Assembly (NCBI GenBank): GCA_002009975.1
Contig: MTLP01000011.1
Location: 1 to 20,986, forward strand
Origin: Thermococcus sp. JdFR-02
Lineage (GTDB): Archaea; Methanobacteriota_B; Thermococci; Thermococcales; Thermococcaceae
DNA length: 20,986 bases
Direction of reading: 5' to 3'
In this document: positions 1,110 through 20,837 of the stretch, one piece after another
Layout of the letters: every line of letters starts with the position of its first letter
How positions within the stretch are numbered: position 1 is the stretch's first letter
Notes under the pieces: model-generated
Database searches by the model: none
What the model was told of the DNA's origin: nothing
Seen by the model: the letters and a program-made list of their open reading frames with translations, nothing else
Made by a program: the position numbers and the translations under genes

Positions 1110-1115
1110 GGTCAC

Positions 1116-2354: not shown

Positions 2355-2385
2355 TTGTACCACCCACACCCAGAAGAAAATGGAA

Positions 2386-2396
2386 GTATTTAAAAG
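2386..2396 (-). promoter_or_regulatory. Putative TATA box of the cdc6-mcm operon
   Basis: CTTTTAAATAC on the minus strand, ~32 nt upstream of ATG 2354. Confidence 0.6.
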
Positions 2397-2430
2397 AATC
2401 AATTTCAGCGATGTCTGAGAAGGTAGCAAG

Positions 2431-2923
2431 ATTGCGACTAAATATTTTACAGCTGTATAGCTTCACTCCTAGAGAGGACACACACGAGATTGCGAATAAA
2501 TCAGACACCCCTCTCCTAAATTTTGTTAACCGTATCGGCTCTTTAGGTCTAAGGTTCTGGACATCAGCTCTGGTTACCAAAGTAAAGAGAGAGCAGAGTT
2601 TGCATTGTAACATGAAGAAGGCTGCCTACTGTTAATCACGGTGAAAAAACAAAATAAAAAGTGAAAAATATAAAAAATTAAAAAATATTTTTCTTGCTTT
2701 ACGTGTTAAACACTAATATTTGCCTCTCAAAAACCCTCTATAGAAGCGATTTATTCGCAATTAGGTTAGCATAATTTCTAAAATTGCGAATAATATAAAA
2801 AATTTATGTTGAGAAGATACTTCAGCGACAAAATTTCTTCAGCTGTGTTGATTTATTCGCAATTTCGTGTGTGTCACCCTTCCGGGACTGAAGTTTTATA
2901 GCCGTAAAATATTTAACCGCAAT
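2431..2923. repeat. ~74 bp imperfect inverted repeat (arms 2431-2503 and 2849-2923) and six ATTGCGAATAAAT-like boxes
   Basis: Arm 1 is attgcgactaaatattttacagctgtatagcttcactcctagagaggacacacacgagattgcgaataaatca. The reverse complement of arm 2 is attgcggttaaatattttacggctataaaacttcagtcccggaagggtgacacacacgaaattgcgaataaatca. Boxes lie at 2431(+, degenerate), 2489(+), 2749(-), 2783(+), 2851(-) and 2911(-, degenerate). Confidence 0.95.
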
Positions 2924-2995
2924 TATATCGGGGTTACCAAAATCCTGATACGCAGGTTACCAAAACTCAGGAGTTACGTTTCTGGGGGAAGTGGG

Positions 2996-3016
2996 AGAGA
3001 GGGGGTCCCCCTCTCT
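2996..3016. repeat. Perfect 21 bp interrupted palindrome AGAGAGGGGG-T-CCCCCTCTCT
   Basis: Read directly: 10 bp arms around one central base. Confidence 0.9.
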
Positions 3017-3059
3017 TTAGTTTGATACAATTGTTTCCAAAAGATCCCAAGTTTTAGGT

Positions 3060-3070
3060 CTTTTAAATAC
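3060..3070 (+). promoter_or_regulatory. Putative TATA box of the HTH gene
   Basis: CTTTTAAATAC ~33 nt upstream of ATG 3103, with RBS AGGTGG at 3092-3097. The 11-mer is identical to the cdc6 promoter box. Confidence 0.6.
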
Positions 3071-3102
3071 CTCTTTCTTTTTCCTATTCAAAGGTGGTGT
3101 GA

Positions 3103-5135: not shown

Positions 5136-5145
5136 TAGTAACTGT

Positions 5146-5174
5146 TTTATAATTGGATGTATATTTATTTTTCG
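5146..5174. promoter_or_regulatory. Overlapping divergent promoters for the EVE and rhomboid-like genes (probably leaderless transcripts)
   Basis: Minus strand CGAAAAA-TAAATATA (5174-5160) ends 24 nt before ATG 5135. Plus strand TTTTATAA (~5146-5152) lies ~23 nt before ATG 5175. Confidence 0.5.
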
Positions 5175-5984: not shown

Positions 5985-5996
5985 ATTGAAAATTTA

Positions 5997-8900
5997 TTAT
6001 ACAGATAACGCTAGCTTTAATATTTTAATAACAGAGTATGGATCGTTTCGTATCTGTTTAGAGTCGAATCTTAACACTTTCCATCCCAAGAGCTGTAGAA
6101 GGTTAGTAATTTCTCGATCATTTCTTGCAATCTCCCCCGTATGATACTTAATCCCATCAACATAAATAGCAATTTTTCTATCTCTATAAGCAAAGTCTGC
6201 TCTAGTAAAGGGCTTACTTTCATGATTAAGTATAACAACCTGAGCCTCTGGATCTGGTATTCCATTATCTCTTAGTAAATTGAGAAATCTTGCCTCTAGA
6301 GGTGACTCCACACTTCTCATCGTTATGTCAGCTTTTTTCTTTTCTGCTGTTCTTTCTTCTCTAGATTCTTCCAGTTCTTCTACTTTCTCAACTTCCGAGT
6401 CAAGCAAGGACTCCAAAAACTCTTTTATCACGTACTTGTCCAGAAGCATGTGGTCACGCTGATTGTAATAGTTTCTGAGGCACCTATAGCAGGCGGAATC
6501 GCACTCATGATTGTAGAGGATTTCGTAAGCTTTATCTATTATTTCTCTGAATCTTCGGATCGCTGCTTCCAGATACCCCACACCTCCAGGGATGTCCTCA
6601 TAAAGCACTATCTCTCTACTCATCTGACCATTTTCGACTACGCTTCGAACAAAACCCTTAACTTCATTGTACTCAGTCTCCAGTACAATGGAAATTCCGG
6701 TTAGAAGGGTGTGCAGCAGGGTCTTTGAAAATACTTCCTGATCAGAACCCTCTGGGATATTTGGAGTGATAATCAGCGAATCAGCGCTCTTCCTGGCTAT
6801 TAGGTCCACGCTCACTATATCCTCATCTGTGCCATCGCATCCCTTGTGTAGGTACTCCCAGGTAGCGTCATCCTCTTTCCACAGCCCGCACTTAATACAA
6901 ATATTAAATCTGGATCCGTTTTCACCTGAGTTCGCAACTAGTATGGTGGAATTTCTCCGGTATTTCAGTTCAAGCTTGTCCGCCACTTTATACCTTTTTC
7001 CTTTAATACCTTCTGATACTAGATACTCATTTACCTCGAATCTCCTTGAAGACCTGAACTCTTCAGTGGAGCTTATCCTCTCTACCCTTCTTGCATAATA
7101 TGTTATTGGCTCTAGGAACCTTCTCTTCTCAACTTCTGAACCACACTTGGGGCAATAGTTCTGATACGGGTCAAAGCTCACATAGCTGCAATCAGGATTA
7201 GTGCATCTCACATATCTTGTGTCCTCGCTTGTGGCAAAATCGATTACAGACCTCTTTTCTTGTGTCCCCACCCTGACGGTGAGATGCTTTCTTCTATCCA
7301 CATAAACATAATTTCCTGGGGCAAACTCTCTGACAGCTATCTCGCTGTCCCTAAGAATAGGCTCAACCCTGTCATGGATATTTAGCTCGCTCTGTATTCC
7401 TGGGAAAGCATAACCTGGCAGGAAGCCGTGGTCTCTCAGGTATGAGAGAGTATATGCCAGATACTCGTCTGTTAGCATTTTTGACTGCTTATCAATGAAG
7501 AGTTGCAGATCTTTGCTCTCATTTAAACGCAACCCTTCAGTGTCTCTTTTTTTCAGTAAATACTGAATATTCCTCTCTAAAAAGTTCAGAGCTTCTATCA
7601 ATGGAGCGAGAGTTTCCTCCAGTTCATCGAAGAAGCTGTCTATGACTTTTTTGATGTAGTCAATGCTCAGCCATTCTATCTTACCTCTCTGCACATCCTC
7701 TTTGAAAACCTGGAAAATCTCTTCAGCTATTTTATCCCTCCTCTCCCTCAGCTCCTCCTCCACCTCAGGGATTCTCTTAACTTTCCAAACATCACCTGTT
7801 TTTTCGACCATACCCTCCAAGAAAGCGGGAAGCTTTGAATTAAGCTTTTCAAGTATAAGGGACCTTATATGCCTTCTGATCACCCGCTCATTGTCAAGGT
7901 TGAAAAATGGGGGAATAATACCCCCTGAGATCATTTCCTTAGGTCTATCAAAGAAGTAAGAATCGTGCGGGGCACCTTTGGAATATGAGATTATTAGCGA
8001 TTTACCCTCCCGTCTCCCTGCTCTACCCGCTCTCTGAGCATAGTTTGATGGCTGAGGTGGTATGTTCCTCATAATTGCTGTTACCAGCTCACCGATATCA
8101 ACGCCAAGCTCAAGAGTAGGTGTGCACACCAAAACATTCTTTTTGCCCTCAGTGAACTCCCTCTCGTACTCCTCCCTCTGAAGAAGAGGTATCTGCCCGC
8201 TATGCTCCGCCACTTTAATAGTTATTGGCTCGTGGTTGGTATAGTGGTGGACGTAGAAGTTGCTCTCATCGACACTTGCTCTTTCTAATGTACCACTACA
8301 CCTGTAGGTGGTGCATCTGCCGTTAATATTAACAGAGAGCACCCTTGTGCAGCTTGGGCACTGCCAGAACTCTTTAAGCGGGACAATCTCCATCACATCA
8401 GGATTAACCATAAATCCAGTTGCCACTCTTCTTCCAAGTTGCCTTTCTACTATGTAGCCTTCTTTGCTGAGCAGGTGCACAATGTCCCTGAAGAAGGAGT
8501 GATGGTCGTCTGTAATCTCGAGAAGTCTCTCGGCAATCATCTGGAAAGCGGTCTTTGGACCTCTTGAGTGGGTAATGAAGGCTCCTATTTTAAAGCTACC
8601 GGTCTCAACTGGAGAGAAAGAGAATGCAGAGGTCTTCCAGTGCGGCGGTAGGGCTATCCCCCACTTCTCGAGAGTTCTTTTATCTGGCCTTCGGATAAAG
8701 TAGTCGTATGCTACTGCACGCCTGAAGCGTAGCTCATCTAAGAACACTTTGAGGAATTTAAGAAGTGTATCTTTATCCAGAAGGTACCTGCTGGCAATTC
8801 TCTCGAATTCCGGTGATTCTGCGAGATCGTTTAGCCTTCCATACTCAATAGTCAGTAGCCCCAGCGCTTCGAGGGTAGCTCTTAGCTTTGGTGGTTTGGA

Positions 8901-10982: not shown

Positions 10983-11094
10983 AAGCTTCCCCTCTTTTTA
11001 TTGTGTTGACTTTAGTTTTTAAAAAAGTTACTGCTTGGTTAATAAAAAATGGATAAGTTATCCAAGTCAGTTGAAGCAAGTTGTTTCTGCTCTC

Positions 11095-12072
11095 TCATGA
11101 GTACAATTCAGCTTCTCGCTTCCATTCGATTACTATTTCATAAAATCTTCTTTTTAGTTCTCCAGAACGTTCTATTTTCAAAAAAGCTTTGGCATACGAT
11201 TTAAATACTTTTTTAAATTCATATTTTAATGTGATACTTAACTGTGAAATATCAGAGCCTATTGATAATTCAATCCACTTTAGCAAAAAAATAAAAATTT
11301 GGTAGTACTGTTCTATAAACTCAGACATTTCATATTCAGTACCATCGAGAACTACAATCTTTTTTGATCCAGAATCATAAAAAATATTTGAATGAGATAT
11401 TTTATTTCTCAAAAGTTTAGGTTTGCCACTTCCACTACCAAAAATTGAATCGTTTTCTTGTGGAATGCCAATTATGCCATGTAGTACTTTATTTATCGTT
11501 CCTGCTGTAGCATGGTCTTTTCCCTTTCTTTTTATTTTTAAAAAATATTTCACAGATCCATTATTATCATGTTTTTTATTTGATTTTAAATATCTATATA
11601 ACTTCCTATCGACAATGTGCAAAATCAATTCATAAGTATTTACAAAAATCCACAAAAGAGTTGACATAAGAATACTTTCTGGCAATATTTTCTTATTTTT
11701 TTCTATATCATTCAGGACTTCTGTTATAAAATAAAGTGGTCCAGCAATTTCTAAGAAATCTTCGGCAGGTACTCTCGATATCGACACTAAAAATTTTAGT
11801 ATTTTTTCGTCATCAGGTGAAATCGAATATTTTTGACTACTAATGTTATGTTCAATATTTTTCAACATTTCAATAAGATTTTCAATGTTTTTCATGTCTA
11901 AATATTCATCTACCTTTTCGGCACTTTTTTCCAGAAATTTACTAAATATTATAGGGTTACCTGTAGATAATGCTTTATTAAGCTCTACTATATATTGTTG
12001 TTGAAAAATTTTGGTGGGAAGCTTTATATAACCTTTCTTTAAGAGGTATTCTACTAATTTAGCCTCGCTCAT
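11095..12072 (-). CDS. AT-rich hypothetical protein with a HEPN-type RNxxxH motif (putative RNase effector)
   Basis: Helical 325 aa ORF. LLRNKISHSN (motif at 11392-11409) is preceded by an NTYELILH helix that could supply the conserved HEPN glutamate. Confidence 0.65.
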   Translation of the reverse strand: MSEAKLVEYLLKKGYIKLPTKIFQQQYIVELNKALSTGNPIIFSKFLEKSAEKVDEYLDMKNIENLIEMLKNIEHNISSQKYSISPDDEKILKFLVSISRVPAEDFLEIAGPLYFITEVLNDIEKNKKILPESILMSTLLWIFVNTYELILHIVDRKLYRYLKSNKKHDNNGSVKYFLKIKRKGKDHATAGTINKVLHGIIGIPQENDSIFGSGSGKPKLLRNKISHSNIFYDSGSKKIVVLDGTEYEMSEFIEQYYQIFIFLLKWIELSIGSDISQLSITLKYEFKKVFKSYAKAFLKIERSGELKRRFYEIVIEWKREAELYS

Positions 12073-12233
12073 AGTATATCAGCTCCTTAGCTTTCCCCAA
12101 GGTTGTATTAAATAGAAATTTTCTCAACTCTCTCAATTTTAATTATTTCATAAGGTACATTAATAAATTGCTGAAGGGTGGATTCTCAATTAGCAAAAAC
12201 TTTATAGCCATTTCCAACATGAAATTTATCAAT

Positions 12234-12551
12234 ATGCCTGGCTTTGAACATGGATTTAATAGGGCTATAAGCGAAATAGTAGGTGGAATGGTTACAATGA
12301 TCATTGTTATTAATATTGCCCAAAATATAAACCCATCATTGGTTATGATGTTTAAAATAGTTGGATTTCTTAGTTTAATCGGTTTAATAATGGCAATGCC
12401 ATATTGGGGAACTTTTTACATGTTAGGATGGATTTATGCCATTGTAATCTTGTATCAAGCAGGTCTTGTTAATCTTTTAGAACTCTTCATATACGTCGGA
12501 TTTCCATCGTTTGTTTTGTTTAAAAGGATAACACGTAGTTTTGATTTTTAA
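12234..12551 (+). CDS. Small membrane protein (~105 aa, 3-4 TM helices)
   Basis: Almost wholly hydrophobic ORF. ATG 12234 is preferred because AAAAACTTTATA lies ~28 nt upstream; alternative starts are 12219 and 12168. Confidence 0.75.
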   Translation: MPGFEHGFNRAISEIVGGMVTMIIVINIAQNINPSLVMMFKIVGFLSLIGLIMAMPYWGTFYMLGWIYAIVILYQAGLVNLLELFIYVGFPSFVLFKRITRSFDF

Positions 12552-12565
12552 ATATAGTTTTTGAC

Positions 12566-12580
12566 AGAAAAATAAAAAAA
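12566..12580 (-). terminator. Putative oligo-T terminator after the 12582 stop
   Basis: The minus strand reads TTTTTTTATTTTT just after the stop, between convergent genes. Confidence 0.45.
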
Positions 12581-12581
12581 G

Positions 12582-13478
12582 TTAAATATTTTCTAAAAAT
12601 CTCCTAATAGCATAATAAACTATAGCATGGGTTGTCATAAGTGCGAGATTTGCATCTCCTCTATCAATACTTTTCCCAGTATGTGCCCCAGGTGCTATAA
12701 ATCGCCATGTACCCTTAAAAATTTTCTCAAAGTGTTTTCCTATATCTTTATCACCAAAAAATTTCTTCCAATCTGGCACAGGACGTTCATTTCCTTTTTC
12801 ATCTTTTTCTATCTTTTCAAATCCTTTATTTACAATTGCTTTTTTTACTTCTTCTAAAGCTCTTCTGCACTCAACAAGGGTATTTTTGTACTCACCTATT
12901 GAGAACTGTTTCCACGCATTGTTGAGGTGAGATACAGCATCCTTCAGCTCTTCTGGAGACTCAAGCTCCGGAACTTCCAATAGCCAGACCTTCTTATACT
13001 TTAGTTCTCTGAGGATTCTCTCCGTCCAGTCGCTTTTTGGGACTCTGCAGTTTAATTTGGGATTGGGAGGCATCCCAGCTAGAGATAAACTGTCTTGATA
13101 CTTATGCATCACAACCCCCTGCAGTTCTAGCTGGAAGTTTACGTCATCCCCATTCCTCAGCTTTTCAATCTGTTCTAATTCATAGTGATTCAGATCAAGA
13201 TTCAGCTGAATATGTACTTCACCAGTTGAGGGAATTTGAATAAATTGCCTATCAGAATACGCCCTACCTGCATAACCAGATGTTCTATTACCTATTACAT
13301 TGACTTTGGCATGGACACCCAAAAAGTACAATTCGCCAGAGGGGATATGTATGGGATTAAGGCTGATATCAAAAGATATCTGTGGAGAGAATGACATTGA
13401 ATTTGCATCAACACCTTCTACTCTCACTCCCCACCTAAAGGTCTGCTGTCCTATGTAAACCTCCATAGTTTCAGCCAT
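12582..13478 (-). CDS. Hypothetical protein with a beta-rich N-terminal domain and a C-terminal HEPN/Abi-like helical domain
   Basis: C-terminal AVSHLNNAW...EYKNTLVECRRALEEV...WRFIAPGAHTG...DRGDANLAL fits a HEPN/DUF4145-like pattern (Rx6H at 12681-12704). Start ATG 13478 has a GGGGTG RBS. Confidence 0.6.
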   Translation of the reverse strand: MAETMEVYIGQQTFRWGVRVEGVDANSMSFSPQISFDISLNPIHIPSGELYFLGVHAKVNVIGNRTSGYAGRAYSDRQFIQIPSTGEVHIQLNLDLNHYELEQIEKLRNGDDVNFQLELQGVVMHKYQDSLSLAGMPPNPKLNCRVPKSDWTERILRELKYKKVWLLEVPELESPEELKDAVSHLNNAWKQFSIGEYKNTLVECRRALEEVKKAIVNKGFEKIEKDEKGNERPVPDWKKFFGDKDIGKHFEKIFKGTWRFIAPGAHTGKSIDRGDANLALMTTHAIVYYAIRRFLENI

Positions 13479-13557
13479 TTGCAACACCCCTATCTATGCT
13501 GATATTCGCTACCAGGCATATTTAACAATTGTTGAGTGACTTGATACAAATACACTA

Positions 13558-16500
13558 CTAAAACTCCCCCAACCTCTTAGTCCTTATAATCTTCCCATCC
13601 CTAGTAAACTGCACCTGCTCCACAAACTTCTTTAGAGGTCTTAGGGGTTTTTCTGTTCCCTTCTTATACTTGCTCAAGTCAAAGCTCTCAGGCGATTTCT
13701 TCTTTTCCTCGGCGATTATTTTTCCAAGCCTCTCGTACTCCTCCAAGCAAAGCCTCTTCGTCCTGAACTCGCCAAAAGCTTCTGTTTCTTTACGCCTGAG
13801 CACTGGGAAGGTGTCCAGGATGTAGGCGAACTCCACTCTTGTCAGCCCGTAGAGGTGTGCCACTAAAGCATCTATCTCAGCCCTGAGCTGTGCTCTTTTT
13901 GCTCCGTCTCTCTTCTCGTTGTTTATGTAAACCCAGTCCGCCACGCCATACTCAGGGGACCACTTCTCGCTCAACCTCTCCCAACCTTCAACTCTACTCG
14001 TTTTTCCGAGGGTGTTCCAGTAGGGCTGGTAGGTCTCCTCCCATAGCTCAGCAAATTCTTCATCCACACATATCAGGCGTGCTGCTCTCGGCACAATCTG
14101 GTCAAAGTACCAGTTGCCAGAGGTGAGGCGGGGGATTGGAAGCTGGTAGAGGTAGAACATGGTCAAATTTGTAGTAACTTTCTGTCTAATTACATAATCT
14201 ACAATGTATGAATTAAAAATACTATTAAAGAAAAAGTGTTCAAATAAATCTTGAGCATTTATAGTAATGCTATTTAGAGAATGTCCACAGCCCGGTGATT
14301 TAAACGAAAATACAGGAAGAACACAAGAAACAAGGGTTCTTTCGTTTGTGTTGGATGCTATTGCTCTATATATTGATCGTGGAAATACAGGTACTCCTTT
14401 GTCAGCTAATCTGTTCAAAATAACTTCCTCACTAATCCAATACTGCGGCTTCTCATAAAACGCATCAAACTGCCAAATCATCTTGCCTTCATAAAGTGGC
14501 AGATAAACCTCCTTCTTTCCATTTCTCTCCACCAGCCACCTCAGCCCTTTCTCGTCTAAGGGCTTGGTTCCCATCTCCTTGAGCTTATCCAGAGTTACAA
14601 AGAGGTGAGAGTCGTTGGTCATGTGAAACTCTGTTGTGAACTTCACATTCCAGGGATAGTTCTCGTCACTCTCACCAAGCAGAGGCCAGTCATCATAAAT
14701 CTTCTCCGCGAGGTCTATGTCCTCCTGCCTCTTGAACTCCATAATTGAGAGAGTGTCAGGCGAGAATCTCTCAATGAGTTTCCTGGATATCCTCAGACCA
14801 TTCTCAGCAACCATAGGCAAAAGCCTGTCAAGCTCCTCAGCCTTCGGTGCAAAGCTACCCTGGAGCACCTCCCAGGGGTCAAGCTCCTCATCTCTAAGCT
14901 CTTCTGGTCTCGATCCGATGAAGAACCCTGCCCTGAAGCTGTAGTCTTCTTCCTGTTTCTCCTTCAGAGCCGAGAATAGAGTATATTTAAACCTGATATC
15001 TATTGAGGGGAATATCTTCATTCTGTTCTCTATTCCAATCAAATAAGATATTCTGGAGTTCTCAAGGAACATCCTCCTTAGCTCTGCGCACCCCTTATCT
15101 GTGTAAAGCCCTGAGGGAACAATAATTGACATCCTTCCCCGTTCTCTGATAAGCCAGAAGAACCTCTCAAGAAAGAGCTTGTACAGGTTTATATCTCCCT
15201 GGTATTGGTGAGGGTAATAACCAGAGTTTCTGAAATAATAGGATTGTCTCTCAATTTTGTCCTTATATTCCCTCCAGCTTTTCTTTATTGCAGGATTTGC
15301 CTCCATCAACTCTCTCATTACTCTTAACTTTTTCTGCTTGGTGTAGTCTCTAAAGTAAGGGTCGTAGTTGCTGAAGAACTCATCGCTGTTGGGCTTTACA
15401 ATGTCCCAGGGCGGATTACCAACGACAGCATCAAACCCTCCCTCGGCGAAGACCTCTGGGAACTCCAGCTCCCAGTGGAAGAACTTGTACTCCTGAGCGA
15501 GCCTCTCCGCCTCCTCAATCATGGCATCAAAGCTCTCATTGCCCTTTCCATCTTCCAGAATGTACCTGAGAATCTCAATGTACTCGTCGGTGGTGGGGAT
15601 CTTCTTGTCCGTAAACCAGAAGGAGCACCACAGGTCGTAAGCCCTTTTCAGCTTCAGGTAAAGCTTGCCTTCTTCAATCTCGCCCTTAACGAGCTGGGAG
15701 TAAAGCTCCTCCTTGAACTTGACAATGGACAGCGCCTCATCAGCCATATTGAGCTTCTGTCTCAGCTCAATTACATCCCTCATGTAGCTCAGCGGGTTTT
15801 CAAGCATTTTCCCTTCTGCTGTAAAGAAATACTTAACCTCCCTGCTTGCCTCCCTCACCCTCTTGTTGTGCCTTCTAAGCTCCCTGTCGCTGAAGAGCTC
15901 ATCAGGGACGAACTTCACCCTCTCGTGGTCAGCACCTATCAGGCTGTTGCCGCATTTAAGTTTGTGATCGAGAAAAGTCAGAGGCTTGCCCTTCGCCATT
16001 GTTGTGAGCCACAGCGAAACCTTGGCAAGCTCCACTGCAAGGGGGTTCAAATCAACGCCGTATATGCAGTTCTCCACCACAAGCCTCTTGAATTCCGCCT
16101 CCTTTTCGCTGTCTATATCCTCCTCGGCAATCAGGCCCTCTCTGAGCAGAGCCTCTTTGTACTTCTCAGCAAGAAAGTTGACAGCAGCCACTAGGAAGGC
16201 ACCGCTTCCCATGGCAGGGTCAAGGACCTTAATCTCCAGTATATCCTCTGAGCTCTTGCCATCGACCAAAGGCTCAAGAGCAGACCTCATCAGGAACTCA
16301 GTTATCTGCCTGGGAGTATAGTAGGTGCCTGTGCTCTTCCTCCTGCCGCCCCAGTAGCCCAGGTAGAACCTCCCTTCGGGGATCTCTTCAATTATTCTCT
16401 CCCCTCTCAGCCTGCTCTTGGGTACAGTCTGAAACTCCCCCTTTATCTTCACAACTACCAAGTCTTCCTCCGCAATCTTCGGCTCAAGCTCCAGCAGTCC

Positions 16501-17706
16501 TTCGTAAATAGAGCCGAGCTGCTCAATGCCAAGCTCCCTGTAGGATATAACCTCCCTTGTTCTTCCACGCCCTCCTGCGGTCAAGGTGAGGTCCCTGATT
16601 ACCTCGGCCATAACACTGTCGCTCACCCTGCACCTGTTGAGCAGTGGAGTTGAAGACTCTGAGAAGAGCTTTCCATTATAGGCAGGCACGTGAAGCTCGC
16701 TACTCTCAAAGCCTTCGTTAATAAGCTTAAAAGTAGCCTTAAGCGACTCCCACAGGAAGTAGCTGTTAGGATGGAAGCTGTTTCTTGGGTCTGCCACAAG
16801 ATCTCTCAAAAACTCAAGACTGTAGAAATTTCTGTACAGCGGGTTCCCAACGGGAAGCAGCTCAGTGCTCTCAGCATAGAGCAGAAAGAGAATTCTGTAA
16901 AGATAGACAAGAGACTCCTGATAGAGCTTCTCAAGGTCGAAGCCCTCGCTCTCAACAACATCCTTGTTGCTCTCATCCTCCAGGACCCCTCTTATGAACC
17001 TCTCCAAGGCTCTAAAGGCGCTCTCCCTGAGCTCGTCTCCCACTCTGATCGCATGCTTTCTGCTCTCCTCTTCCAGCACCTCGATAAGGCTCTTACCGCT
17101 CTCATCAGGCACAAAAGCCTCCTTTCTGAAAATAGCCCAGAACACCCTGAAAGAGTCCCTGTCCTCAAGCTCAAAGGTGCGCCACAGGTCAACCTCAAGG
17201 TAGGACCTATCCGAACTCAGGGGACTGTTTCTTATGAGCCTGATCACTTTCCCATTCGTAAGTATTCCATAGGGTGCCTTGGCGTAATAAAGTGCTCTCA
17301 CGAGCTCTTTGTGGGGCGATCTTGCGAGTCCTTCAGCTGCATCCAAGCTCTCTCCAAACCTTAAAAATCTGAAGATTACAAGCGGCTTGTTGTTATATTT
17401 CTCAATAGCTGAGATTTTAATTTCACCCTTCTCTGTCTCTATGCTGTTTCTCCACAGTGGCGAGAAGCCCAGCTTTTGAAAGATGTGCTTAAGCCAAATA
17501 TTCCACATCTCACTGAGCGAAGTCTTATCGCCAAGTGTTCCTCCATACCTGTCGAATCTGTACAGCAGCCACCTGTAAGCTTCGTTTACTGTGCTTTCAC
17601 CAAGCTTTCCCTTCAGTGACCTTTCGTTTAAAATATTGCCCAAAAAGTAGTCTGAGAAGAATCCTCCAGCGTTTATTACGTTGGAGTAAACGGCAGGTTT
17701 TCTCAA
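13558..17706 (-). CDS. Eco57I/type IIG-like N6-adenine DNA methyltransferase (DrmMI-like), 1382 aa
   Basis: RRKSTGTYYTP, motif I VLDPAMGSGAFL, IYGVDLNPLAVELAKVSLWL, motif IV GFDAVVGNPPW, and a C-terminal TRD region (YRAIASNTNERT). The TTG start overlaps the upstream TGA stop (TTGA), implying translational coupling. Confidence 0.93.
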   Translation of the reverse strand: MRKPAVYSNVINAGGFFSDYFLGNILNERSLKGKLGESTVNEAYRWLLYRFDRYGGTLGDKTSLSEMWNIWLKHIFQKLGFSPLWRNSIETEKGEIKISAIEKYNNKPLVIFRFLRFGESLDAAEGLARSPHKELVRALYYAKAPYGILTNGKVIRLIRNSPLSSDRSYLEVDLWRTFELEDRDSFRVFWAIFRKEAFVPDESGKSLIEVLEEESRKHAIRVGDELRESAFRALERFIRGVLEDESNKDVVESEGFDLEKLYQESLVYLYRILFLLYAESTELLPVGNPLYRNFYSLEFLRDLVADPRNSFHPNSYFLWESLKATFKLINEGFESSELHVPAYNGKLFSESSTPLLNRCRVSDSVMAEVIRDLTLTAGGRGRTREVISYRELGIEQLGSIYEGLLELEPKIAEEDLVVVKIKGEFQTVPKSRLRGERIIEEIPEGRFYLGYWGGRRKSTGTYYTPRQITEFLMRSALEPLVDGKSSEDILEIKVLDPAMGSGAFLVAAVNFLAEKYKEALLREGLIAEEDIDSEKEAEFKRLVVENCIYGVDLNPLAVELAKVSLWLTTMAKGKPLTFLDHKLKCGNSLIGADHERVKFVPDELFSDRELRRHNKRVREASREVKYFFTAEGKMLENPLSYMRDVIELRQKLNMADEALSIVKFKEELYSQLVKGEIEEGKLYLKLKRAYDLWCSFWFTDKKIPTTDEYIEILRYILEDGKGNESFDAMIEEAERLAQEYKFFHWELEFPEVFAEGGFDAVVGNPPWDIVKPNSDEFFSNYDPYFRDYTKQKKLRVMRELMEANPAIKKSWREYKDKIERQSYYFRNSGYYPHQYQGDINLYKLFLERFFWLIRERGRMSIIVPSGLYTDKGCAELRRMFLENSRISYLIGIENRMKIFPSIDIRFKYTLFSALKEKQEEDYSFRAGFFIGSRPEELRDEELDPWEVLQGSFAPKAEELDRLLPMVAENGLRISRKLIERFSPDTLSIMEFKRQEDIDLAEKIYDDWPLLGESDENYPWNVKFTTEFHMTNDSHLFVTLDKLKEMGTKPLDEKGLRWLVERNGKKEVYLPLYEGKMIWQFDAFYEKPQYWISEEVILNRLADKGVPVFPRSIYRAIASNTNERTLVSCVLPVFSFKSPGCGHSLNSITINAQDLFEHFFFNSIFNSYIVDYVIRQKVTTNLTMFYLYQLPIPRLTSGNWYFDQIVPRAARLICVDEEFAELWEETYQPYWNTLGKTSRVEGWERLSEKWSPEYGVADWVYINNEKRDGAKRAQLRAEIDALVAHLYGLTRVEFAYILDTFPVLRRKETEAFGEFRTKRLCLEEYERLGKIIAEEKKKSPESFDLSKYKKGTEKPLRPLKKFVEQVQFTRDGKIIRTKRLGEF

Positions 17707-20627
17707 CTCAACGCCCCCCTAGGTATAATCATCGCCGCCGAGATAACCTCGGATGCCTTACCATTGCTCCGTCTAACACTTATTTCTCCGCTCTTCTCAA
17801 GGTCCCTGAGCCTCGCCTCAGCATTCTTTTTGAGGCTTTCAATTTCGCTGGTAATCCTTCTATTTCTCAGCTTTGCCTCCCTTACTTCTGACGGATCTGC
17901 TCCTAATAGGGTTGTCTGTATAGACCTTTTCTCCGCCTCTAACTCCTTAATCCTGGCCTCCACGTAATCTTCAATATCTCTCTTCTCTTCTTCCACCCTT
18001 AATGAGAGTGAGGCTGCTAATTCTTCAGCAAGCCTTGTAGCTATGTTCTCAATCGCATCAAAAGAGTGGTTCAGTGCAAGTTCCCATTTCTTCTCAAAGT
18101 TTTCCTTCAGAAATTCTGGTGGTGCATTTATTTTCAGGCTTTCGGCAGCAAGTGCGTTAGCGGCTGTGTATTCGTCCTCAACCTTATCCTCCTCGAGGTT
18201 AACAAAAATCGGTACAAGCCTCTCCTCCACAACCTTACCATAGCCATTCTGAAGCTTCACGAGGTGCACAAAAAGGATACCCAGAGGGAAGCCCTCAACC
18301 ACCTTGTAGGTTACCCTGTAATCATTGACAGGGTGATATAGGAGCCTCCTGTACTCCCGCAGAACCGCGGAGATTAGTGGGTGAGTGAGTGTGAGAAATT
18401 CCACGCTCCCATCCCTGAGAGCGACCTTACGGCTAAAAGTTGCCTTCTCATATAAGCTCTCAACTCCAGAGTACCTTAAGTTCTGAGGAACCTCTATCCT
18501 GTAAATTTCTGGAACAATCTCCTCAATTCTACCACCATGCTTCCTGATCATGTGCTCTGTGAGCCCCTTTAGGTCAGTGAAGTCAGGAAGCTCTGTTCTG
18601 GTGGAATCTATTGTGCCTTTTACTTCTTTCTCCTCCTCTTTTGTGTGTCCAAAAAGTGCTAGAGTCCTTATTTCTTTATTATAAGTGGTTAGAATTTCCC
18701 TGATATATCCGTCAAGCTTCTTTTGAGCTTCTTCTACCTCCTCTTTTGTCTCTTTTCCCATTAACTCGTCAATCAGCTTGTCCTGCTTGAATATCCCTAG
18801 CACATCCGTCACTGAGCCTGTGTCCCTTTTTATATCTATAAGCTTGGTGATTAAGAGCTTAAGAATATCAGACTCGTAGCTGTCCACCAAATGGAGATTG
18901 TAGATCCTCACTCTCCTCTTCTGCCCCCATCTATCAACTCTGCCATTCCTTTGCTCCAGTCTGTTGGGGTTCCATGGGAGTTCGTTGTGTATTATTATTG
19001 AGCAGTTCTTCTGGAAGTTGAGCCCCTCGCTAGCCGCATCTGTGGCGATGAGAATCTTGCAATCAGGGCTGTTAAAGAACCTGTCAGCTTCCTTTCTCTG
19101 CCTTGAACTCATCATTCCATTAAGCAGCGCTATCTTCCCTTCGTAGCCATTCCGCGAGAGAAAGTCGTAAAGATACTTCTGGGTGTCTCTGTATTCTGTG
19201 AAAATAATGACTTTTTCGTTATCTTCGGTTTCTTCTCTCAAAATTTCGAGTATTTTATAAGCTTTAGAATCTCCGACTACTAATGCCTGCTCAACCATTC
19301 GGAGAATCTTCTCTAACCTCTTTTTCTCCCTCTCGATACCTTCAATGGATGTTTCCAGGGTGGTTCTGAGCACATCCGCTTCCACTTTTTCGATCTGTCT
19401 TTCTGTGAGACTCACCCCCTCAATGTAGCTTCTTTTCAGAGCGGTGTCCATCTGATATCTCAAATTTTCCAGGTTGCTAATTCTGTATTCGAGTGAGCGG
19501 CGAAGTGCCTCAAGGCTGCTCATGAGTCTCTTCTTTAAAATAACCATTGCGAAGGCTACCGACTGAGCTTCTTTTGTCTCTAATGCTTTCTTGTAGTATC
19601 TGTCGGCATACCGGGCAAGTTCTTTGTAAATCTTTTTCTCTAAGTCGGATTTGAATTCTACATCAATTATCCTAACCTCTGGCTCCTTAAACGTTCTATC
19701 TCCATTGTCCTCTACGATCTGGCTTTTAAGTCTCCTTACGAAGTATAACTTAGCATCTTTTGATAGCTCACCGTTCGGCCTTACGAGTCTTTCGTCCAGG
19801 AGCCTCAAAATACTGCGGAAGCTTTCAGGTCTTCCAGAGTGAGGCGTGGCGGTTAAGAGGATGAGTGATTCACACCTTTTTGAAATCTTCTCACCGAACC
19901 TTGCTCTATCGGTCTTGTTGTGGACGTAAGATAAATAATGTGCCTCGTCGACTATAACAACGTCCCACTTTACGTTTTCTATCTTCCTGAAAACATCTTC
20001 CCGCTTAATATAGTCAATAGATGTTATAATTCTGTCGTAAGCCTCCCAGGGGTTAATTCCTGTTTGGATTTGTGAGCTAATTTCTTTAATCCTGCTGCTG
20101 TCGAAAATCTCAAAGTCAAGGTTAAACTTATCCTTAAGCTCGTCCTGCCATTGCTCTTGAAGCGAAGCTGGTGTTACAATAAGAACCCTGTTTGCTTTGT
20201 TCCTGGCAATTAGCTCCATTAAAATAAGCCCGGCTTCTACAGTTTTTCCCAAACCAACATCGTCTGCAATCAAAATTCTTGGCTTTAGAAGCTTTTTTAT
20301 TCTGATGAGGGGTATAAGCTGATACCTCTCGATTTTGATTCTGCTATTAAGGATGGATAATAGAAACTTGTTGGAATGAGTGAGTGAGTAATTAATCGCA
20401 TCCACAAAGTATTTCCAGTATTCTGGGTTGGTGGGCACTGTGAACTTAAGTTGTGCAGAATCTAAAACCTTGATGTCCTCTAATGAAGCGATGCATGTTA
20501 CTTTTTTGCCATTTAAAGGTCCTTCTTTTGCCTTTGCGACTAGTTTATAAGAGTTCCCCAGCTCTGAAACTTCCTCTACCTGCCAGGTTATCCCCCTCAT
20601 CAAAATATTCTGCCCAACTTCTAGCAT
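17703..20627 (-). CDS. drmD: SNF2-family helicase, DISARM DrmD-like
   Basis: ILIADDVGLGKTVEAG, VIVDEAH, LLTATPHSG, VIIFTEYRDT, ATDAASEGLNFQ and LPWNPNRLEQRNGRVDRWGQ, with a C-terminal coiled coil and a GGAGG RBS. Coupled to the downstream methyltransferase. Confidence 0.88.
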   Translation of the reverse strand: MLEVGQNILMRGITWQVEEVSELGNSYKLVAKAKEGPLNGKKVTCIASLEDIKVLDSAQLKFTVPTNPEYWKYFVDAINYSLTHSNKFLLSILNSRIKIERYQLIPLIRIKKLLKPRILIADDVGLGKTVEAGLILMELIARNKANRVLIVTPASLQEQWQDELKDKFNLDFEIFDSSRIKEISSQIQTGINPWEAYDRIITSIDYIKREDVFRKIENVKWDVVIVDEAHYLSYVHNKTDRARFGEKISKRCESLILLTATPHSGRPESFRSILRLLDERLVRPNGELSKDAKLYFVRRLKSQIVEDNGDRTFKEPEVRIIDVEFKSDLEKKIYKELARYADRYYKKALETKEAQSVAFAMVILKKRLMSSLEALRRSLEYRISNLENLRYQMDTALKRSYIEGVSLTERQIEKVEADVLRTTLETSIEGIEREKKRLEKILRMVEQALVVGDSKAYKILEILREETEDNEKVIIFTEYRDTQKYLYDFLSRNGYEGKIALLNGMMSSRQRKEADRFFNSPDCKILIATDAASEGLNFQKNCSIIIHNELPWNPNRLEQRNGRVDRWGQKRRVRIYNLHLVDSYESDILKLLITKLIDIKRDTGSVTDVLGIFKQDKLIDELMGKETKEEVEEAQKKLDGYIREILTTYNKEIRTLALFGHTKEEEKEVKGTIDSTRTELPDFTDLKGLTEHMIRKHGGRIEEIVPEIYRIEVPQNLRYSGVESLYEKATFSRKVALRDGSVEFLTLTHPLISAVLREYRRLLYHPVNDYRVTYKVVEGFPLGILFVHLVKLQNGYGKVVEERLVPIFVNLEEDKVEDEYTAANALAAESLKINAPPEFLKENFEKKWELALNHSFDAIENIATRLAEELAASLSLRVEEEKRDIEDYVEARIKELEAEKRSIQTTLLGADPSEVREAKLRNRRITSEIESLKKNAEARLRDLEKSGEISVRRSNGKASEVISAAMIIPRGALS

Positions 20628-20837
20628 GCGCCGCCTCCAAATCAGAAGTTGATTATAAGGATTATAAAAGAATTATAATAAATTTACTATCCAACCCTCA
20701 CAGTTTCTACCACTCTGTTTTGAGGTTGTAGATCCGCCCCCACATCTGATTCTTTTAAAAGCCAATACAGGGGGATGTCACTTTTCCAGCGCTCCTCCGC
20801 AAACAACAGATACAAAAAAAGAGCACCTTCTCTTTTC

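What the first reader, a model, noticed from the sequence alone, without database searches (positions are those of the whole stretch)
5997..20627. Archaeal DISARM-related system: SNF2, methyltransferase and one fused helicase-DUF1998-nuclease
Known: class 1 DISARM is drmD, drmMI, drmA (helicase), drmB (DUF1998) and drmC (PLD nuclease). Seen: drmD-like and drmMI-like genes are coupled, but helicase, DUF1998 and nuclease occur in one 1661 aa YprA-like protein with a Vsr/DUF559-like nuclease, and there is no PLD gene. From recall, this resembles the recently named ARMADA-type YprA systems; the extra UvrD-like helicase I associate with them is not in this window. Inference: a minimal three-gene archaeal variant in which methylation marks self and the helicase-nuclease attacks non-self DNA.
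Basis: partly seen in the sequence, partly recalled or inferred. Interest (0 to 1): 0.78.

Follow-up and report, generated by a model that had tools for sequence, protein, structure and literature searches.

The report
ARMADA type I defence with cargo
This is an archaeal copy of the three-gene ARMADA type I anti-virus system described in 2025, ordinary in itself, but with unnamed extra genes, one carrying an RNase-like (HEPN) domain, wedged into a slot that holds other defence genes in related genomes.

Summary
On the minus strand lie a DrmD/BrxHII-like SNF2 helicase (17703-20627), a 4-nt-overlapping PglX/DrmMI-like N6-adenine methyltransferase (13558-17706) and a 1661-aa YprA-family helicase with fused DUF1998 and a C-terminal Vsr/DUF559 nuclease (5997-10982). 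No PLD and no UvrD-like gene is in the window.

This is not a new minimal DISARM variant. It is ARMADA Type I (Bell et al. 2025), which by definition lacks the extra helicase and is reported with this gene order in archaea. In a tree of 102 homologues the helicase falls among those with the same neighbours and tail.

It holds three low-GC genes without family hits:
- a beta-sandwich plus HEPN-fold protein (298 aa);
- a small membrane protein (127 aa, opposite strand);
- a helical protein with an invariant Rx4H motif (325 aa).

In 21 of 36 related loci this junction holds unrelated genes, many of them known defence genes, so these are probably swappable defence cargo.

The contig also carries Orc1/Cdc6, a cut MCM gene and an origin-like repeat region, and differs in GC from the host, so it is likely a mobile element. 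The scan found ARMADA I with cargo before on other DNA. Interest is modest.

The parts
17703..20627 (-). armA-like gene: SNF2/RapA-type helicase (DrmD/BrxHII-like), 974 aa; Walker A GLGKT at residues 125-129, DEAH at 227-230
13558..17706 (-). armB-like gene: PglX/DrmMI-like N6-adenine DNA methyltransferase, 1382 aa; SAM motif at 496-504, NPPW at 764-767; its TTG start overlaps the armA stop (TTGA)
12582..13478 (-). Cargo gene 1 (P0134, 298 aa from the ATG at 13478): N-terminal beta-sandwich (residues 1-146) plus C-terminal HEPN-fold domain (174-298). R205 is near-invariant and H266 invariant across the family. GC3 0.34.
12168..12551 (+). Cargo gene 2, opposite strand: 127-aa protein with three hydrophobic stretches (small membrane protein by eye). 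It fills most of the gap between the other two cargo genes. GC3 0.31.
   Evidence: no hit in Pfam, PADLOC, NCBIfam or PHROGs
11095..12072 (-). Cargo gene 3 (P0002, 325 aa): all-helical protein with an invariant L-R-N-x-I-x-H motif (R222, H227; Rx4H, HEPN-like). GC3 0.215.
5997..10982 (-). armC-like gene: YprA-family DEAD/DEAH helicase, 1661 aa; Walker A GSGKT 110-114, DEIH 232-235, eight CxxC motifs, fused DUF1998 and Vsr nuclease
6477..6716 (-). DUF1998/MZB zinc-binding module of armC (residues 1423-1502; C1494, C1498 and C1501 invariant)
6015..6305 (-). Vsr/DUF559-type nuclease tail of armC (residues about 1560-1656; E1563, D1596 and H1614 invariant in 25 homologues, D1609 at 90% or more)
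1116..3102 (.). Context: orc1/cdc6 gene (1116-2429, minus) beside an origin-like intergenic region (2430-3102). The region has six copies of ATTGCGAATAAAT-like boxes in both orientations around an A/T-rich stretch.

Best explanation
The locus is an ARMADA Type I anti-virus system in the archaeal gene order armA (SNF2), armB (N6-adenine methyltransferase), armC (YprA helicase with a Vsr nuclease tail). It sits on a compositionally foreign contig that also has its own Orc1/Cdc6, MCM and origin-like region, in a Thermococcaceae-type archaeon. Inferred working, by analogy with DISARM/BREX and with the tested E. coli Type II system: ArmB methylates a host motif; ArmA and ArmC use ATP to translocate on invading DNA; the Vsr domain cuts it. 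Shown here: the three genes are intact with catalytic motifs present, and they are linked across many genomes. Not shown: methylation, the target, or how self is told from non-self. Between armB and armC lies a 2.6-kb insert of three low-GC genes. This junction is a variable slot in related loci and often holds stand-alone defence genes. I therefore read the insert as independently acquired defence cargo, most likely an HEPN-type (RNase) abortive-infection module. In that reading the fast-diverging beta-sandwich of the 298-aa protein senses infection, and the Rx4H protein and/or the HEPN domain degrade RNA. This last step is inference only.
For: Domains and motifs of the three core genes come. 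They match the published definition and archaeal gene order, the domain description of the helicase and the active C-terminal Vsr nuclease. Walker A/B and NPPW lie at positions close to those mutated in E. coli ArmA, ArmC and ArmB.

Of 101 full-length homologues taken from 159 fetched loci, I counted those with at least 8 kb of flank on both sides. Among these, 8 of 11 with a Vsr tail have both an ArmA-like and an ArmB-like neighbour, against 1 of 28 without the tail.

In a FastTree of 102 rows, a branch with 100 local support separates 46 rows (none with a tail or such neighbours) from 56 rows that hold all of them. The window lies in the second group, in a 19-row subclade (support 82) with loci of the same gene order.

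The slot: 36 loci have the methyltransferase upstream of the helicase and aligned to its end. In 21 of them the corrected gap is 725-8053 nt, and in 15 it is under 600 nt. The window's gap is 2575 nt. Of 51 slot ORFs of at least 150 aa on the operon strand, only 9 fall in 3 BLASTP clusters, and none matches the window's. Of 36 slot ORFs scanned, 21 hit Pfam families. These include HTH+Peptidase_M78 (4 loci), Abi_2, McrB-like AAA_5 with DUF2357, TIR-DUF2252, OLD-type ATPase-TOPRIM, GmrSD (2 loci), SMODS with TIR-SAVED (CBASS) and HNH. One more hits the PADLOC candidate PDC-M30A.

GC3 is 0.49, 0.585 and 0.49 for the core genes, against 0.34, 0.31 and 0.215 for the cargo.

Cargo folds: the 298-aa protein's C-terminal domain matches HEPN structures (2hsb_A Z 11.8, rmsd 3.4, 117 aligned; 1wol_A Z 10.5, rmsd 2.8, 105 aligned; several other HEPN chains follow). 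Of 43 family members, 5 hit Pfam HEPN and 4 hit DUF4145. Its N-terminal domain diverges faster than the HEPN domain in 8 of 10 homologues. The 325-aa protein has an invariant Rx4H in 10 sequences.
Against: No published ARMADA reference sequence was in my tree. Clade membership rests on context labels that I assigned, on FastTree only, and the nearest subclade has support 82.

PADLOC 2.0.0 has no ARMADA model, and its best hit for the helicase is DruE (2.1e-169).

Type I has not been tested in the texts I read; only E. coli Type II was.

The BrxA-like, beta-barrel and MarR-like inserts described for ARMADA helicases were not checked by structure.

For the cargo:
- The 298-aa protein lacks a canonical Rx4-6H. 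Its conserved R205 and H266 lie 60 residues apart.
- The HEPN reading of the 325-aa protein rests on a motif plus weak fold matches (7ae2_A Z 5.7, rmsd 4.8, 124 aligned; 1jog_A Z 5.4, rmsd 4.3, 128 aligned). Foldseek, Pfam and hhalign against an Abi_2 protein (probability 0.14) give nothing.
- Neither cargo family was found in any of the other fetched loci, so defence linkage beyond this lineage is almost untested.
- 15 of the 36 slot ORFs scanned had no Pfam family, and some slots hold a transposase or a two-component pair. The slot is therefore not purely defence.

The contig may belong to a plasmid or to a co-binned organism. Its GC is 43.7% against a genome mean of 38.1%.
Confidence: 0.85

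Rival explanations
1. A new minimal class-1 DISARM variant in which DrmA, DrmB and a replacement nuclease are fused.
For: The SNF2 and methyltransferase genes hit DrmD and DrmMI models best. The helicase carries DUF1998, as DrmB does.
Against: The helicase hits DruE models at 2.1e-169 but DrmA at only 5.2e-22. The published YprA phylogeny puts fused, Vsr-tailed helicases with BrxHII/PglX-like neighbours in ARMADA, nearest to Druantia and not to DISARM. There is no separate drmB and no PLD drmC.
Confidence: 0.03
2. The three inserted genes are integral, lineage-specific subunits or regulators of this ARMADA system, not independent cargo.
For: Two of the three are co-directional with the operon and lie between two core genes. 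Close relatives keep a homologue of the 298-aa protein on contigs of the same recorded length as their near-identical helicase (14529 and 16057 nt). In run X5 the 325-aa and 127-aa genes lie together at about 97% identity.
Against: 15 of 36 related loci have no room for any gene at this junction, and the other 21 hold unrelated genes. Cargo GC3 is far below that of the core genes. The cargo proteins diverge much faster than the helicase: the 298-aa protein's homologues are 79% and 68% identical where the helicase on a same-length contig is 92% identical or lies in the same 90% cluster.
Confidence: 0.12
3. The locus is a silent or decaying passenger on a mobile element and gives no defence in this host.
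For: It is foreign in composition. It is absent from the other 132 genomes of the phylum: one has a distant 1805-aa helicase without ArmA/ArmB neighbours. No RNA run holds it, which is no evidence either way.
Against: All five minus-strand ORFs are intact over 14.6 kb with catalytic motifs present. Near-identical copies occur in runs of several studies.
Confidence: 0.1
4. A Druantia-like system: the helicase is a DruE and the neighbours are an unrelated restriction-modification pair.
For: The best PADLOC hit is DruE1. The closest solved relative is a 2108-aa DEAD/DEAH helicase (9tu7_Y, 2.3e-68).
Against: No DruA-D, DruH, DruF/G or DruM match turned up among the 10 window ORFs scanned. The helicase has a Vsr tail and groups with homologues that have ArmA/ArmB neighbours, apart from the 46 tail-less, neighbour-less homologues.
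Confidence: 0.03

Closest known systems
ARMADA Type I (Bell et al. 2025, bioRxiv 10.1101/2025.09.15.676423 / PMC12458937; I read sections 5-8, term passages, and searched supplementary table media-1.xlsx)
   Same: It has the three components: a BrxHII-like SNF2 helicase, a PglX-like methyltransferase with NPPW, and a YprA helicase with fused OB-CON-DUF1998 and a C-terminal Vsr nuclease. There is no ArmD. The gene order is the one reported for many archaea.
   Different: Three unrelated low-GC genes sit between armB and armC. The main text does not describe such inserts: one search found 0 hits for 'inserted between', 'hotspot', 'additional genes' and 'accessory', and 2 hits for 'embedded', both in other senses. 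In the stored part of Table S1 (the file is cut), 8 Thermococcales rows were found and none is typed ARMADA Type I; 5,428 ARMADA Type I rows are in the held part. MAGs with other names would be missed.
ARMADA Type II of E. coli (armABCD; Bell et al. 2025; mBio 2026, PMC13463889, passages read)
   Same: ArmA, ArmB and ArmC are homologous in domain content. Walker and NPPW motifs lie at similar positions. This is the only ARMADA type with experimental proof of defence in what I read.
   Different: Type II adds ArmD (a GajB-like UvrD helicase with a RelE domain), is reported absent from archaea, and its ArmC often carries extra inactive nuclease domains. None of this is present here.
Class 1 DISARM (drmD, drmMI, drmA, drmB, drmC)
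   Same: An SNF2 helicase and an adenine methyltransferase of the same families, plus a YprA-family helicase with DUF1998.
   Different: The helicase and DUF1998 are fused. The nuclease is Vsr-type and fused, not a separate PLD. The helicase is far closer to DruE models than to DrmA models.
Druantia DruE helicases
   Same: These are the closest helicase models. The closest solved structure is probably also a DruE, but its entry is titled only 'DEAD/DEAH box helicase', so that is my guess.
   Different: No Druantia partner genes are present, and ArmA and ArmB are present instead. By the paper, the Vsr tail is predicted active in ARMADA, whereas Druantia III has PLD domains and Druantia I/II have an inactivated Vsr.
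HEPN-domain defence and toxin proteins (HEPN-MNT toxins, AbiD/F Abi_2, AbiJ, RnlA/LsoA, Csm6; family roles partly recalled)
   Same: The 298-aa cargo protein has an HEPN-fold C-terminal domain, and some family members hit Pfam HEPN or DUF4145. The 325-aa protein has an Rx4H motif.
   Different: The window's own proteins match no Pfam, PADLOC, NCBIfam or PHROGs family. The 298-aa protein lacks the canonical Rx4-6H and adds a beta-sandwich. No nucleotidyltransferase partner is present.

Membership tests
ARMADA Type I | YprA-family SF2 helicase with fused OB-CON-DUF1998 module in one polypeptide | tested here: met
   Pfam DEAD 1.3e-30, Helicase_C 1.7e-15 and MZB/DUF1998 3.4e-12 in one 1661-aa ORF. 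Solved YprA/MrfA 6znp_A matches at 3.7e-38.
ARMADA Type I | C-terminal Vsr-type (PD-(D/E)xK) nuclease domain predicted active | tested here: met
   Pfam DUF559 at 26.7 bits, over its 20.6 cut-off, on residues 1595-1655. E1563, D1596 and H1614 are invariant in 25 homologues. Which of these are the catalytic residues of Vsr is recalled, not tested. phmmer of the tail alone found no solved structure.
ARMADA Type I | Adjacent BrxHII/RapA-like SNF2 helicase (ArmA) | tested here: met
   PADLOC DrmD 1.3e-145 and BrxHII 1.8e-126; NCBIfam RapA 8.5e-69; Walker A and DEAH present.
ARMADA Type I | Adjacent PglX-like N6-adenine methyltransferase (ArmB) with NPPW | tested here: met
   PADLOC DrmMI 7e-116 and PglX 9e-14; NCBIfam BREX-1 PglX 1.4e-18; NPPW at 764 and the SAM motif.
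ARMADA Type I | Helicase belongs to the ARMADA clade of the YprA tree, not to Druantia, DISARM or Dpd | tested here: met
   In a tree of 102 homologues the window lies on the side of a 100-support split that holds all Vsr-tailed, ArmA/ArmB-linked rows (counts). Caveats: FastTree only, labels are by context, and no published reference sequence was included.
ARMADA Type I | BrxA-like, beta-barrel zinc module, MarR-like and coiled-coil HTH inserts in the helicase | not tested
   Only CxxC motifs at 461, 474, 534, 568, 875, 1277, 1362 and 1498 were seen. No structure of the helicase was predicted.
ARMADA Type I | No ArmD (GajB-like UvrD helicase with RelE domain), which defines Type II | tested here: met
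   No UvrD-like or RelE hit in the 12 ORFs scanned. Past the 3' end of armC lie a convergent membrane-protein ORF and an EVE gene.
ARMADA Type I | Protects against viruses | not testable with these tools
   In the texts I read, only Type II of E. coli was tested.
Class 1 DISARM | Separate drmA and drmB genes and a PLD nuclease drmC | tested here: not met
   Helicase and DUF1998 are fused, and no PLD family hit was found in the window ORFs. DrmA models reach only 5.2e-22 against 2.1e-169 for DruE.
Druantia | DruE together with DruA-D, DruH, or DruM/F/G partner genes | tested here: not met
   PADLOC gave no Dru partner hit for any of the 10 window ORFs scanned.
HEPN superfamily (298-aa cargo protein) | Four-helix HEPN fold | tested here: met
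   2hsb_A Z 11.8, rmsd 3.4, 117 of 126 aligned; 1wol_A Z 10.5, rmsd 2.8, 105 aligned. Six of the ten best rows carry HEPN in their title. 5 of 43 family members hit Pfam HEPN and 4 of 43 hit DUF4145. The tool warns that Z under about 13 for helical bundles can be a common arrangement.
HEPN superfamily (298-aa cargo protein) | Canonical Rx4-6H RNase motif | tested here: not met
   The conserved R205 (90% or more) and H266 (invariant) lie 60 residues apart, and no Rx4-6H is conserved. It is therefore filed as HEPN-fold, not as a canonical HEPN RNase.
HEPN superfamily (325-aa cargo protein) | Rx4-6H motif | tested here: met
   R222-N-K-I-S-H227; the R and H are invariant in 10 sequences.
HEPN superfamily (325-aa cargo protein) | HEPN fold | tested here: inconclusive
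   7ae2_A Z 5.7, rmsd 4.8, 124 aligned; 1jog_A Z 5.4, rmsd 4.3, 128 aligned over residues about 98-273. These are tied with unrelated helical proteins. Foldseek found nothing at E<=0.001.

The most novel reading that the evidence does not exclude
The insert is a previously undescribed archaeal HEPN-based abortive-infection module riding in a general cargo slot of ARMADA Type I operons. It consists of a 298-aa beta-sandwich-HEPN protein, a 127-aa membrane protein and a 325-aa Rx4H protein. The rapidly diverging beta-sandwich would be the virus sensor. The 298-aa protein's family (1478 representatives at E<=0.001, unnamed) would then be a new, widespread defence family. The armB-armC junction would be a defence-gene exchange site comparable to those in BREX and type I restriction operons (that comparison is recalled, not tested here).
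Probability: 0.35. Interest if true: 0.6.

Novelty: new member of a known kind. Interest (0 to 1): 0.33.

Why it matters
The core finding adds little, because ARMADA Type I was published in 2025 and includes archaea. Three things give it some value.

- It is the only full ARMADA Type I found in the 133 genomes of this hyperthermophile phylum that I searched. No Thermococcales row is typed ARMADA Type I in the held part of the paper's table. That makes it a candidate for testing ARMADA in a genetically tractable archaeal order.
- It gives another independent example that the armB-armC junction is a swap site for defence genes. I did not find this in print, though this scan has noted it on other DNA.
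- The slot can serve as a guilt-by-association filter. Here it points to unnamed families, one of them large (1478 representatives) and carrying an HEPN-fold domain, as candidate defence genes.

Tried and rejected
Family searches on the cargo:
- Pfam, PADLOC, NCBIfam and PHROGs gave no hit for the 325-aa, 127-aa and 275-aa proteins or for the 298-aa protein (scanned from its 301-aa GTG start, and as the 298-aa form).
- Scanning each of the 10 members of the 325-aa family at E<=1 gave only scattered chance hits.

Fold and profile comparisons:
- Foldseek against PDB with the 325-aa model found nothing at E<=0.001.
- hhalign of that family against an Abi_2 slot protein gave probability 0.14. Against the 298-aa family it gave probability 0.34.
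- Profile searches of PDB sequences gave nothing meaningful.
- The ESM Atlas returned unnamed clusters only. The nearest named ones score 0.75-0.80 and are leads only.

Looking for cargo homologues with genomic context:
- Viral contigs: none.
- Plasmids: none.
- The 325-aa family in the phylum: 1 of 133 genomes, the window's own.
- The 298-aa family: 2 partial matches in 43 genomes of another archaeal phylum and 0 in 401 sampled genomes of another phylum.
- hmmsearch of both profiles over the six-frame ORFs of 168 fetched loci: none.
- The two partial matches lie near an SNF2-NOV_C helicase with a DUF1156 gene, and near a HepT-MNT pair. That is too little to count.

Binding: complex prediction on the 325-aa and 298-aa proteins gave no answer.

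Expression and coverage:
- No RNA holder is listed.
- In run X2 the methyltransferase and SNF2 part had almost no cover, while an identical contig spans 6035-11208. No contig bridges the uncovered part, so nothing follows.

Insert boundaries: only short A/T-rich chance repeats flank the insert.

Other checks:
- Rfam: 0 matches. tRNA genes: 0.
- The bacterial promoter and terminator scan was at shuffle level (27 found against 25.5 expected; 16 against 13.9) and does not apply to archaea.
- The missing AAA+ part of the cut MCM gene was not found at any contig end.
- The Vsr tail alone found no solved structure.
Full report
WHAT IS THERE. The window is one whole contig (C25, 20,986 nt) of a 2.36-Mb, 44-contig archaeal assembly.
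- 17703-20627, 974 aa
- 13558-17706, 1382 aa
- 12582-13487, 301 aa from a GTG. The start is more likely the ATG at 13478, which gives 298 aa. That ATG is preceded by AGGGGTG, and the 298-aa form is the one on public record.
- 11095-12072, 325 aa
- 5997-10982, 1661 aa

A 127-aa ORF on the plus strand (12168-12551) fills most of the 510-nt gap between the third and fourth ORFs.

THE THREE CORE GENES.

The 974-aa protein is an SNF2/RapA-type helicase:
- PADLOC DrmD 1.3e-145 and BrxHII 1.8e-126
- NCBIfam DISARM_DrmD 522 bits, below its 610 cut-off, and RapA 8.5e-69
- GLGKT and DEAH motifs present

The 1382-aa protein is a gamma-type N6-adenine methyltransferase:
- Pfam Eco57I 1.1e-28 and N6_Mtase 9.1e-15
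- PADLOC DrmMI 7e-116 and type IIG enzyme 1.4e-95
- SAM motif at 496-504 and NPPW at 764

The SNF2 stop and the methyltransferase start overlap as TTGA.

The 1661-aa protein has the following:
- DEAD, Helicase_C, MZB/DUF1998 (residues 1423-1502) and DUF559 (1595-1655, over the curated cut-off)
- Walker A GSGKT at 110, DEIH at 232, and eight CxxC motifs
- Invariant E1563, D1596 and H1614 in the nuclease tail across 25 homologues
- Best PADLOC models DruE (2.1e-169), with DrmA far behind at 5.2e-22
- Closest solved chains: a 2108-aa DEAD/DEAH helicase (9tu7_Y, 2.3e-68) and B. subtilis YprA (6znp_A, 3.7e-38)

None of the 12 ORFs scanned hits a PLD or UvrD family.

WHAT IT IS. Bell et al. (bioRxiv 2025; I read sections 5-8) define ARMADA as YprA-clade systems that share a BrxHII-like helicase and a PglX-like methyltransferase with DISARM.
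- Type I has just these three genes, occurs in 'a variety of archaea', and has the order BrxHII, methyltransferase, YprA 'in many archaea and cyanobacteria'.
- Type II adds a GajB-like helicase with a RelE domain and 'is absent from archaea'.
- ARMADA helicases carry a predicted active C-terminal Vsr nuclease.

The window matches this definition feature by feature.

I tested clade membership with my own data. From 159 loci around homologues (79 from genomes; 80 from metagenomes), I took 101 full-length helicases and labelled them by tail and by neighbours. I then counted only loci with at least 8 kb on both sides. Of these, 8 of 11 Vsr-tailed helicases have both an ArmA-like and an ArmB-like neighbour, against 1 of 28 tail-less ones.

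A FastTree of 102 rows splits with 100 local support into two groups. One holds 46 rows, none with a tail or such neighbours. The other holds 56 rows that contain all tailed and linked ones. The window, with its 66%-identical metagenomic relative L090, sits in the second group. It lies inside a 19-row subclade (support 82) with loci of the same gene order.

Caveats on this test:
- FastTree only
- Three long branches were flagged
- No named reference sequence was included
- Rows were dropped if the match did not span query residues 20 or lower to 1500 or higher, or if no ORF of at least 900 aa covered it

The mBio 2026 paper reports that DefenseFinder calls ARMADA II, and the preprint used PADLOC with ARMADA models.

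The armB stop and the armC start are 2575 nt apart. The genes in between have GC3 of 0.34, 0.31 and 0.215. The three core genes have 0.49, 0.585 and 0.49.

In the related loci, 45 have the methyltransferase upstream of the helicase on the same strand. In 36 of these the methyltransferase aligns to its end. Of the 36, 15 have a corrected gap under 600 nt and 21 have 725-8053 nt.

The gap ORFs are almost all unrelated to one another. Of 51 ORFs of at least 150 aa on the operon strand, 9 fall in 3 BLASTP clusters and none matches the window's.

I gave Pfam 36 of the 246 gap ORFs of at least 70 aa. I chose the long, mostly non-overlapping ones on the operon strand, plus one on the other strand. 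Of the 36, 21 hit families:
- HTH_3 with Peptidase_M78, in 4 loci (in 3 of these a conserved ~167-aa gene follows)
- Abi_2
- McrB-like AAA_5 with DUF2357
- TIR-DUF2252
- an OLD-type ATPase-TOPRIM
- GmrSD, in 2 loci
- SMODS with TIR-SAVED (a CBASS pair)
- HNH
- AAA_14-DUF4143
- DUF5615
- DUF6988
- GMT-wHTH
- and also a DDE transposase and a response-regulator/HATPase pair

PADLOC adds the candidate PDC-M30A and a weak LmuA-like hit. It also shows that one 'gap ORF' (in L130) is only the methyltransferase's own C-terminus.

So the armB-armC junction is a variable slot rich in stand-alone defence genes. I found no mention of this in the main text of Bell et al., nor in the listings and passages. 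I did not read its supplementary PDF. Earlier reports of this scan noted the same slot on other DNA. I tested it independently here.

THE CARGO PROTEINS.

The 298-aa protein (P0134):
- It has 11 relatives by word-index search, including itself.
- A profile search of the 1.84-billion-protein library finds 1478 representatives at E<=0.001, 529 at 1e-10 and 100 at 1e-30. It is a real, unnamed family.
- The AlphaFold2 model (pLDDT 84) has a beta-sandwich at residues 1-146 (3but_A Z 8.3, rmsd 3.3, 119 aligned).
- It also has a helical domain at 174-298 whose best matches are HEPN structures: 2hsb_A Z 11.8, rmsd 3.4, 117 aligned; 1wol_A Z 10.5, rmsd 2.8, 105 aligned. Sacsin HEPN, SO_3166, 4nqf and HEPN toxins follow.
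- Of 43 family members, 5 hit Pfam HEPN (best 7e-5) and 4 hit DUF4145 (best 8.4e-6).
- Across those 43, P32, E105, S149, W151, G195 and H266 are invariant, and R205 is conserved at 90% or more. No canonical Rx4-6H is present.
- The beta-sandwich diverges faster than the HEPN domain in 8 of 10 homologues, for example 48% against 91%.

The 325-aa protein (P0002):
- It has 10 relatives by word-index search.
- It is all-helical in its model (pLDDT 78, pTM 0.76).
- It keeps an invariant LRNxIxH motif (R222, H227), plus a conserved HATAG stretch and invariant D155-R156.
- The only domain-covering fold matches are HEPN proteins at low Z (5.7 and 5.4), tied with unrelated helical proteins.

The 127-aa ORF has three hydrophobic stretches and is on public record as a called gene.

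Co-occurrence, from recorded contig lengths only:
- A 92%-identical helicase and a 79%-identical homologue of the 298-aa protein both lie on a 14,529-nt contig.
- A helicase of the same 90% cluster and a 68%-identical homologue lie on a 16,057-nt contig.
- A 96%-identical fragment of the 325-aa protein and a 54%-identical homologue of the 298-aa protein lie on a 3,154-nt contig.

In run X5, one contig covers the 325-aa and 127-aa genes at about 97% identity. The 298-aa gene is only 85% identical over its 3' half and then runs into unlike sequence.

The cargo therefore evolves, or is exchanged, faster than the core.

HOW IT LIKELY WORKS.

Shown:
- intact genes with their catalytic motifs
- conserved linkage of the three core genes
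- a mosaic insert

Taken from papers:
- In E. coli Type II, all arm genes are needed for defence.
- Walker motifs of ArmA and ArmC and the NPPW of ArmB are needed.
- Defence is direct and not abortive.
- armB deletion strains were viable and lysed on infection.

Inferred:
- ArmB marks host DNA.
- ArmA and ArmC act on unmarked DNA, and the Vsr domain cuts it.
- The insert is a separate HEPN-type module, probably an RNase-based second line of defence.

A review states that ARMADA's restriction mechanism is unknown.

CONTEXT. The contig's GC is 43.7%, against a genome mean of 38.1%. It also carries:
- an Orc1/Cdc6 gene (1116-2429), one of four paralogues in the genome; the nearest is 41% identical
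- the N-terminal 371 residues of an MCM, cut by the contig end; the genome has at least four other MCM genes, one of them a 1699-aa frame in which the MCM domain lies in three separated pieces
- between cdc6 and an HTH gene, six ATTGCGAATAAAT-like boxes in both orientations around an A/T-rich stretch, which looks like an archaeal origin

Among 133 genomes of the phylum, only the window's genome has this helicase. One other genome has a distant 1805-aa homologue (27% identical over query residues 3-1519, so no tail match) with no ArmA or ArmB within about 15 kb.

In the held part of the paper's Table S1 (the file is cut), 8 Thermococcales rows were found. [quoted passage not shown] Type I rows do include Haloquadratum, Methanoplanus and Methanosarcina.

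Runs that hold the stretch are labelled subsurface, marine and hydrothermal-vent metagenomes. There are 13 holders in 7 studies, one of which may be the source.

The locus is most likely cargo of a plasmid or integrated element. I cannot exclude that the contig was binned from a co-occurring organism.

VERDICT. The system is a new member of a known kind. The modest new points are the Thermococcales host, the replicon-like context and the unnamed cargo genes in the variable slot, one with an HEPN-fold domain and one with an Rx4H motif.

Noticed in passing
window 2430-3102: Origin-like intergenic region next to orc1/cdc6. Six copies of an ATTGCGAATAAAT-like 13-mer lie in both orientations (at about 2431, 2489, 2748, 2781, 2850 and 2910) around an A/T-rich stretch at 2640-2690. 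There is also a 27-nt inverted repeat that is 96% complementary (2477-2503 / 2849-2875).
   Followed up: partly
window 3-1115 and 1116-2429; genome contigs C2, C7, C8, C9, C19, C22, C40: The contig carries an MCM N-terminal part, cut by the contig end, and an extra Orc1/Cdc6. The genome has four Cdc6 paralogues and at least five MCM genes, which suggests several integrated or extrachromosomal elements. The AAA+ part of this MCM was not found at any contig end.
   Followed up: partly
window 5157-5984 (+): A 275-aa ORF with very low GC (26.7%, GC3 0.24) that is strongly hydrophobic along its length (polytopic membrane protein by eye). It converges on the armC stop, 13 nt away. It has no family hit, and this exact sequence is not in the protein collection.
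   Followed up: partly
window 4695-5135 (-): An EVE-domain protein (Pfam EVE 6e-22) lies just beyond the locus. An 89-nt stretch of it is 81% identical to contig C18 (44.6% GC), another compositionally odd contig.
   Followed up: no
window 3103-4299 (+): A 398-aa protein with an N-terminal LexA-like winged helix (7e-7) and weak PHROG hits to replication initiator and DnaD-like loader families, facing the origin-like region. It is a possible element-encoded replication or regulatory protein.
   Followed up: no
window 4766 and 20835 (run X2): One contig of run X2 joins position 4766 to 20835, skipping 16,068 nt: the whole ARMADA locus, the membrane ORF and part of the EVE gene. Only 26 letters lie on the shorter side and likeness was set at 80, so it may be an artefact. 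If real, it marks an island-free form.
   Followed up: no
genome contigs C18, C22, C24, C26, C29, C32, C37, C38, C43, C44: About ten contigs have 42-49% GC against about 37-38% for the bulk of the assembly. They may be further mobile elements, rRNA-rich pieces or mis-binned DNA.
   Followed up: no
L124:3698-5949, L032:4543-9375, L094:7713-9494, L091:8046-9875: In related ARMADA Type I loci the same slot holds complete known systems or effectors: a CBASS pair (SMODS with TIR-SAVED), a McrBC-like pair, an OLD-family nuclease, and a TIR-DUF2252 protein next to a DDE transposase.
   Followed up: partly
L178:14417-19834 (genome G120): The only other YprA-like defence-type helicase found in the phylum is an 1805-aa protein in a complete genome of the largest genus. 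It has no Vsr-tail match and no ArmA/ArmB neighbours. [quoted passage not shown]
   Followed up: partly
L014:9459-9959, L018:9450-9959, L020:9462-9965: A conserved gene of about 167 aa with no Pfam or PADLOC hit follows the HTH-Peptidase_M78 (ImmA/IrrE-like) gene in three ARMADA slots. This may be an unnamed two-gene module.
   Followed up: no
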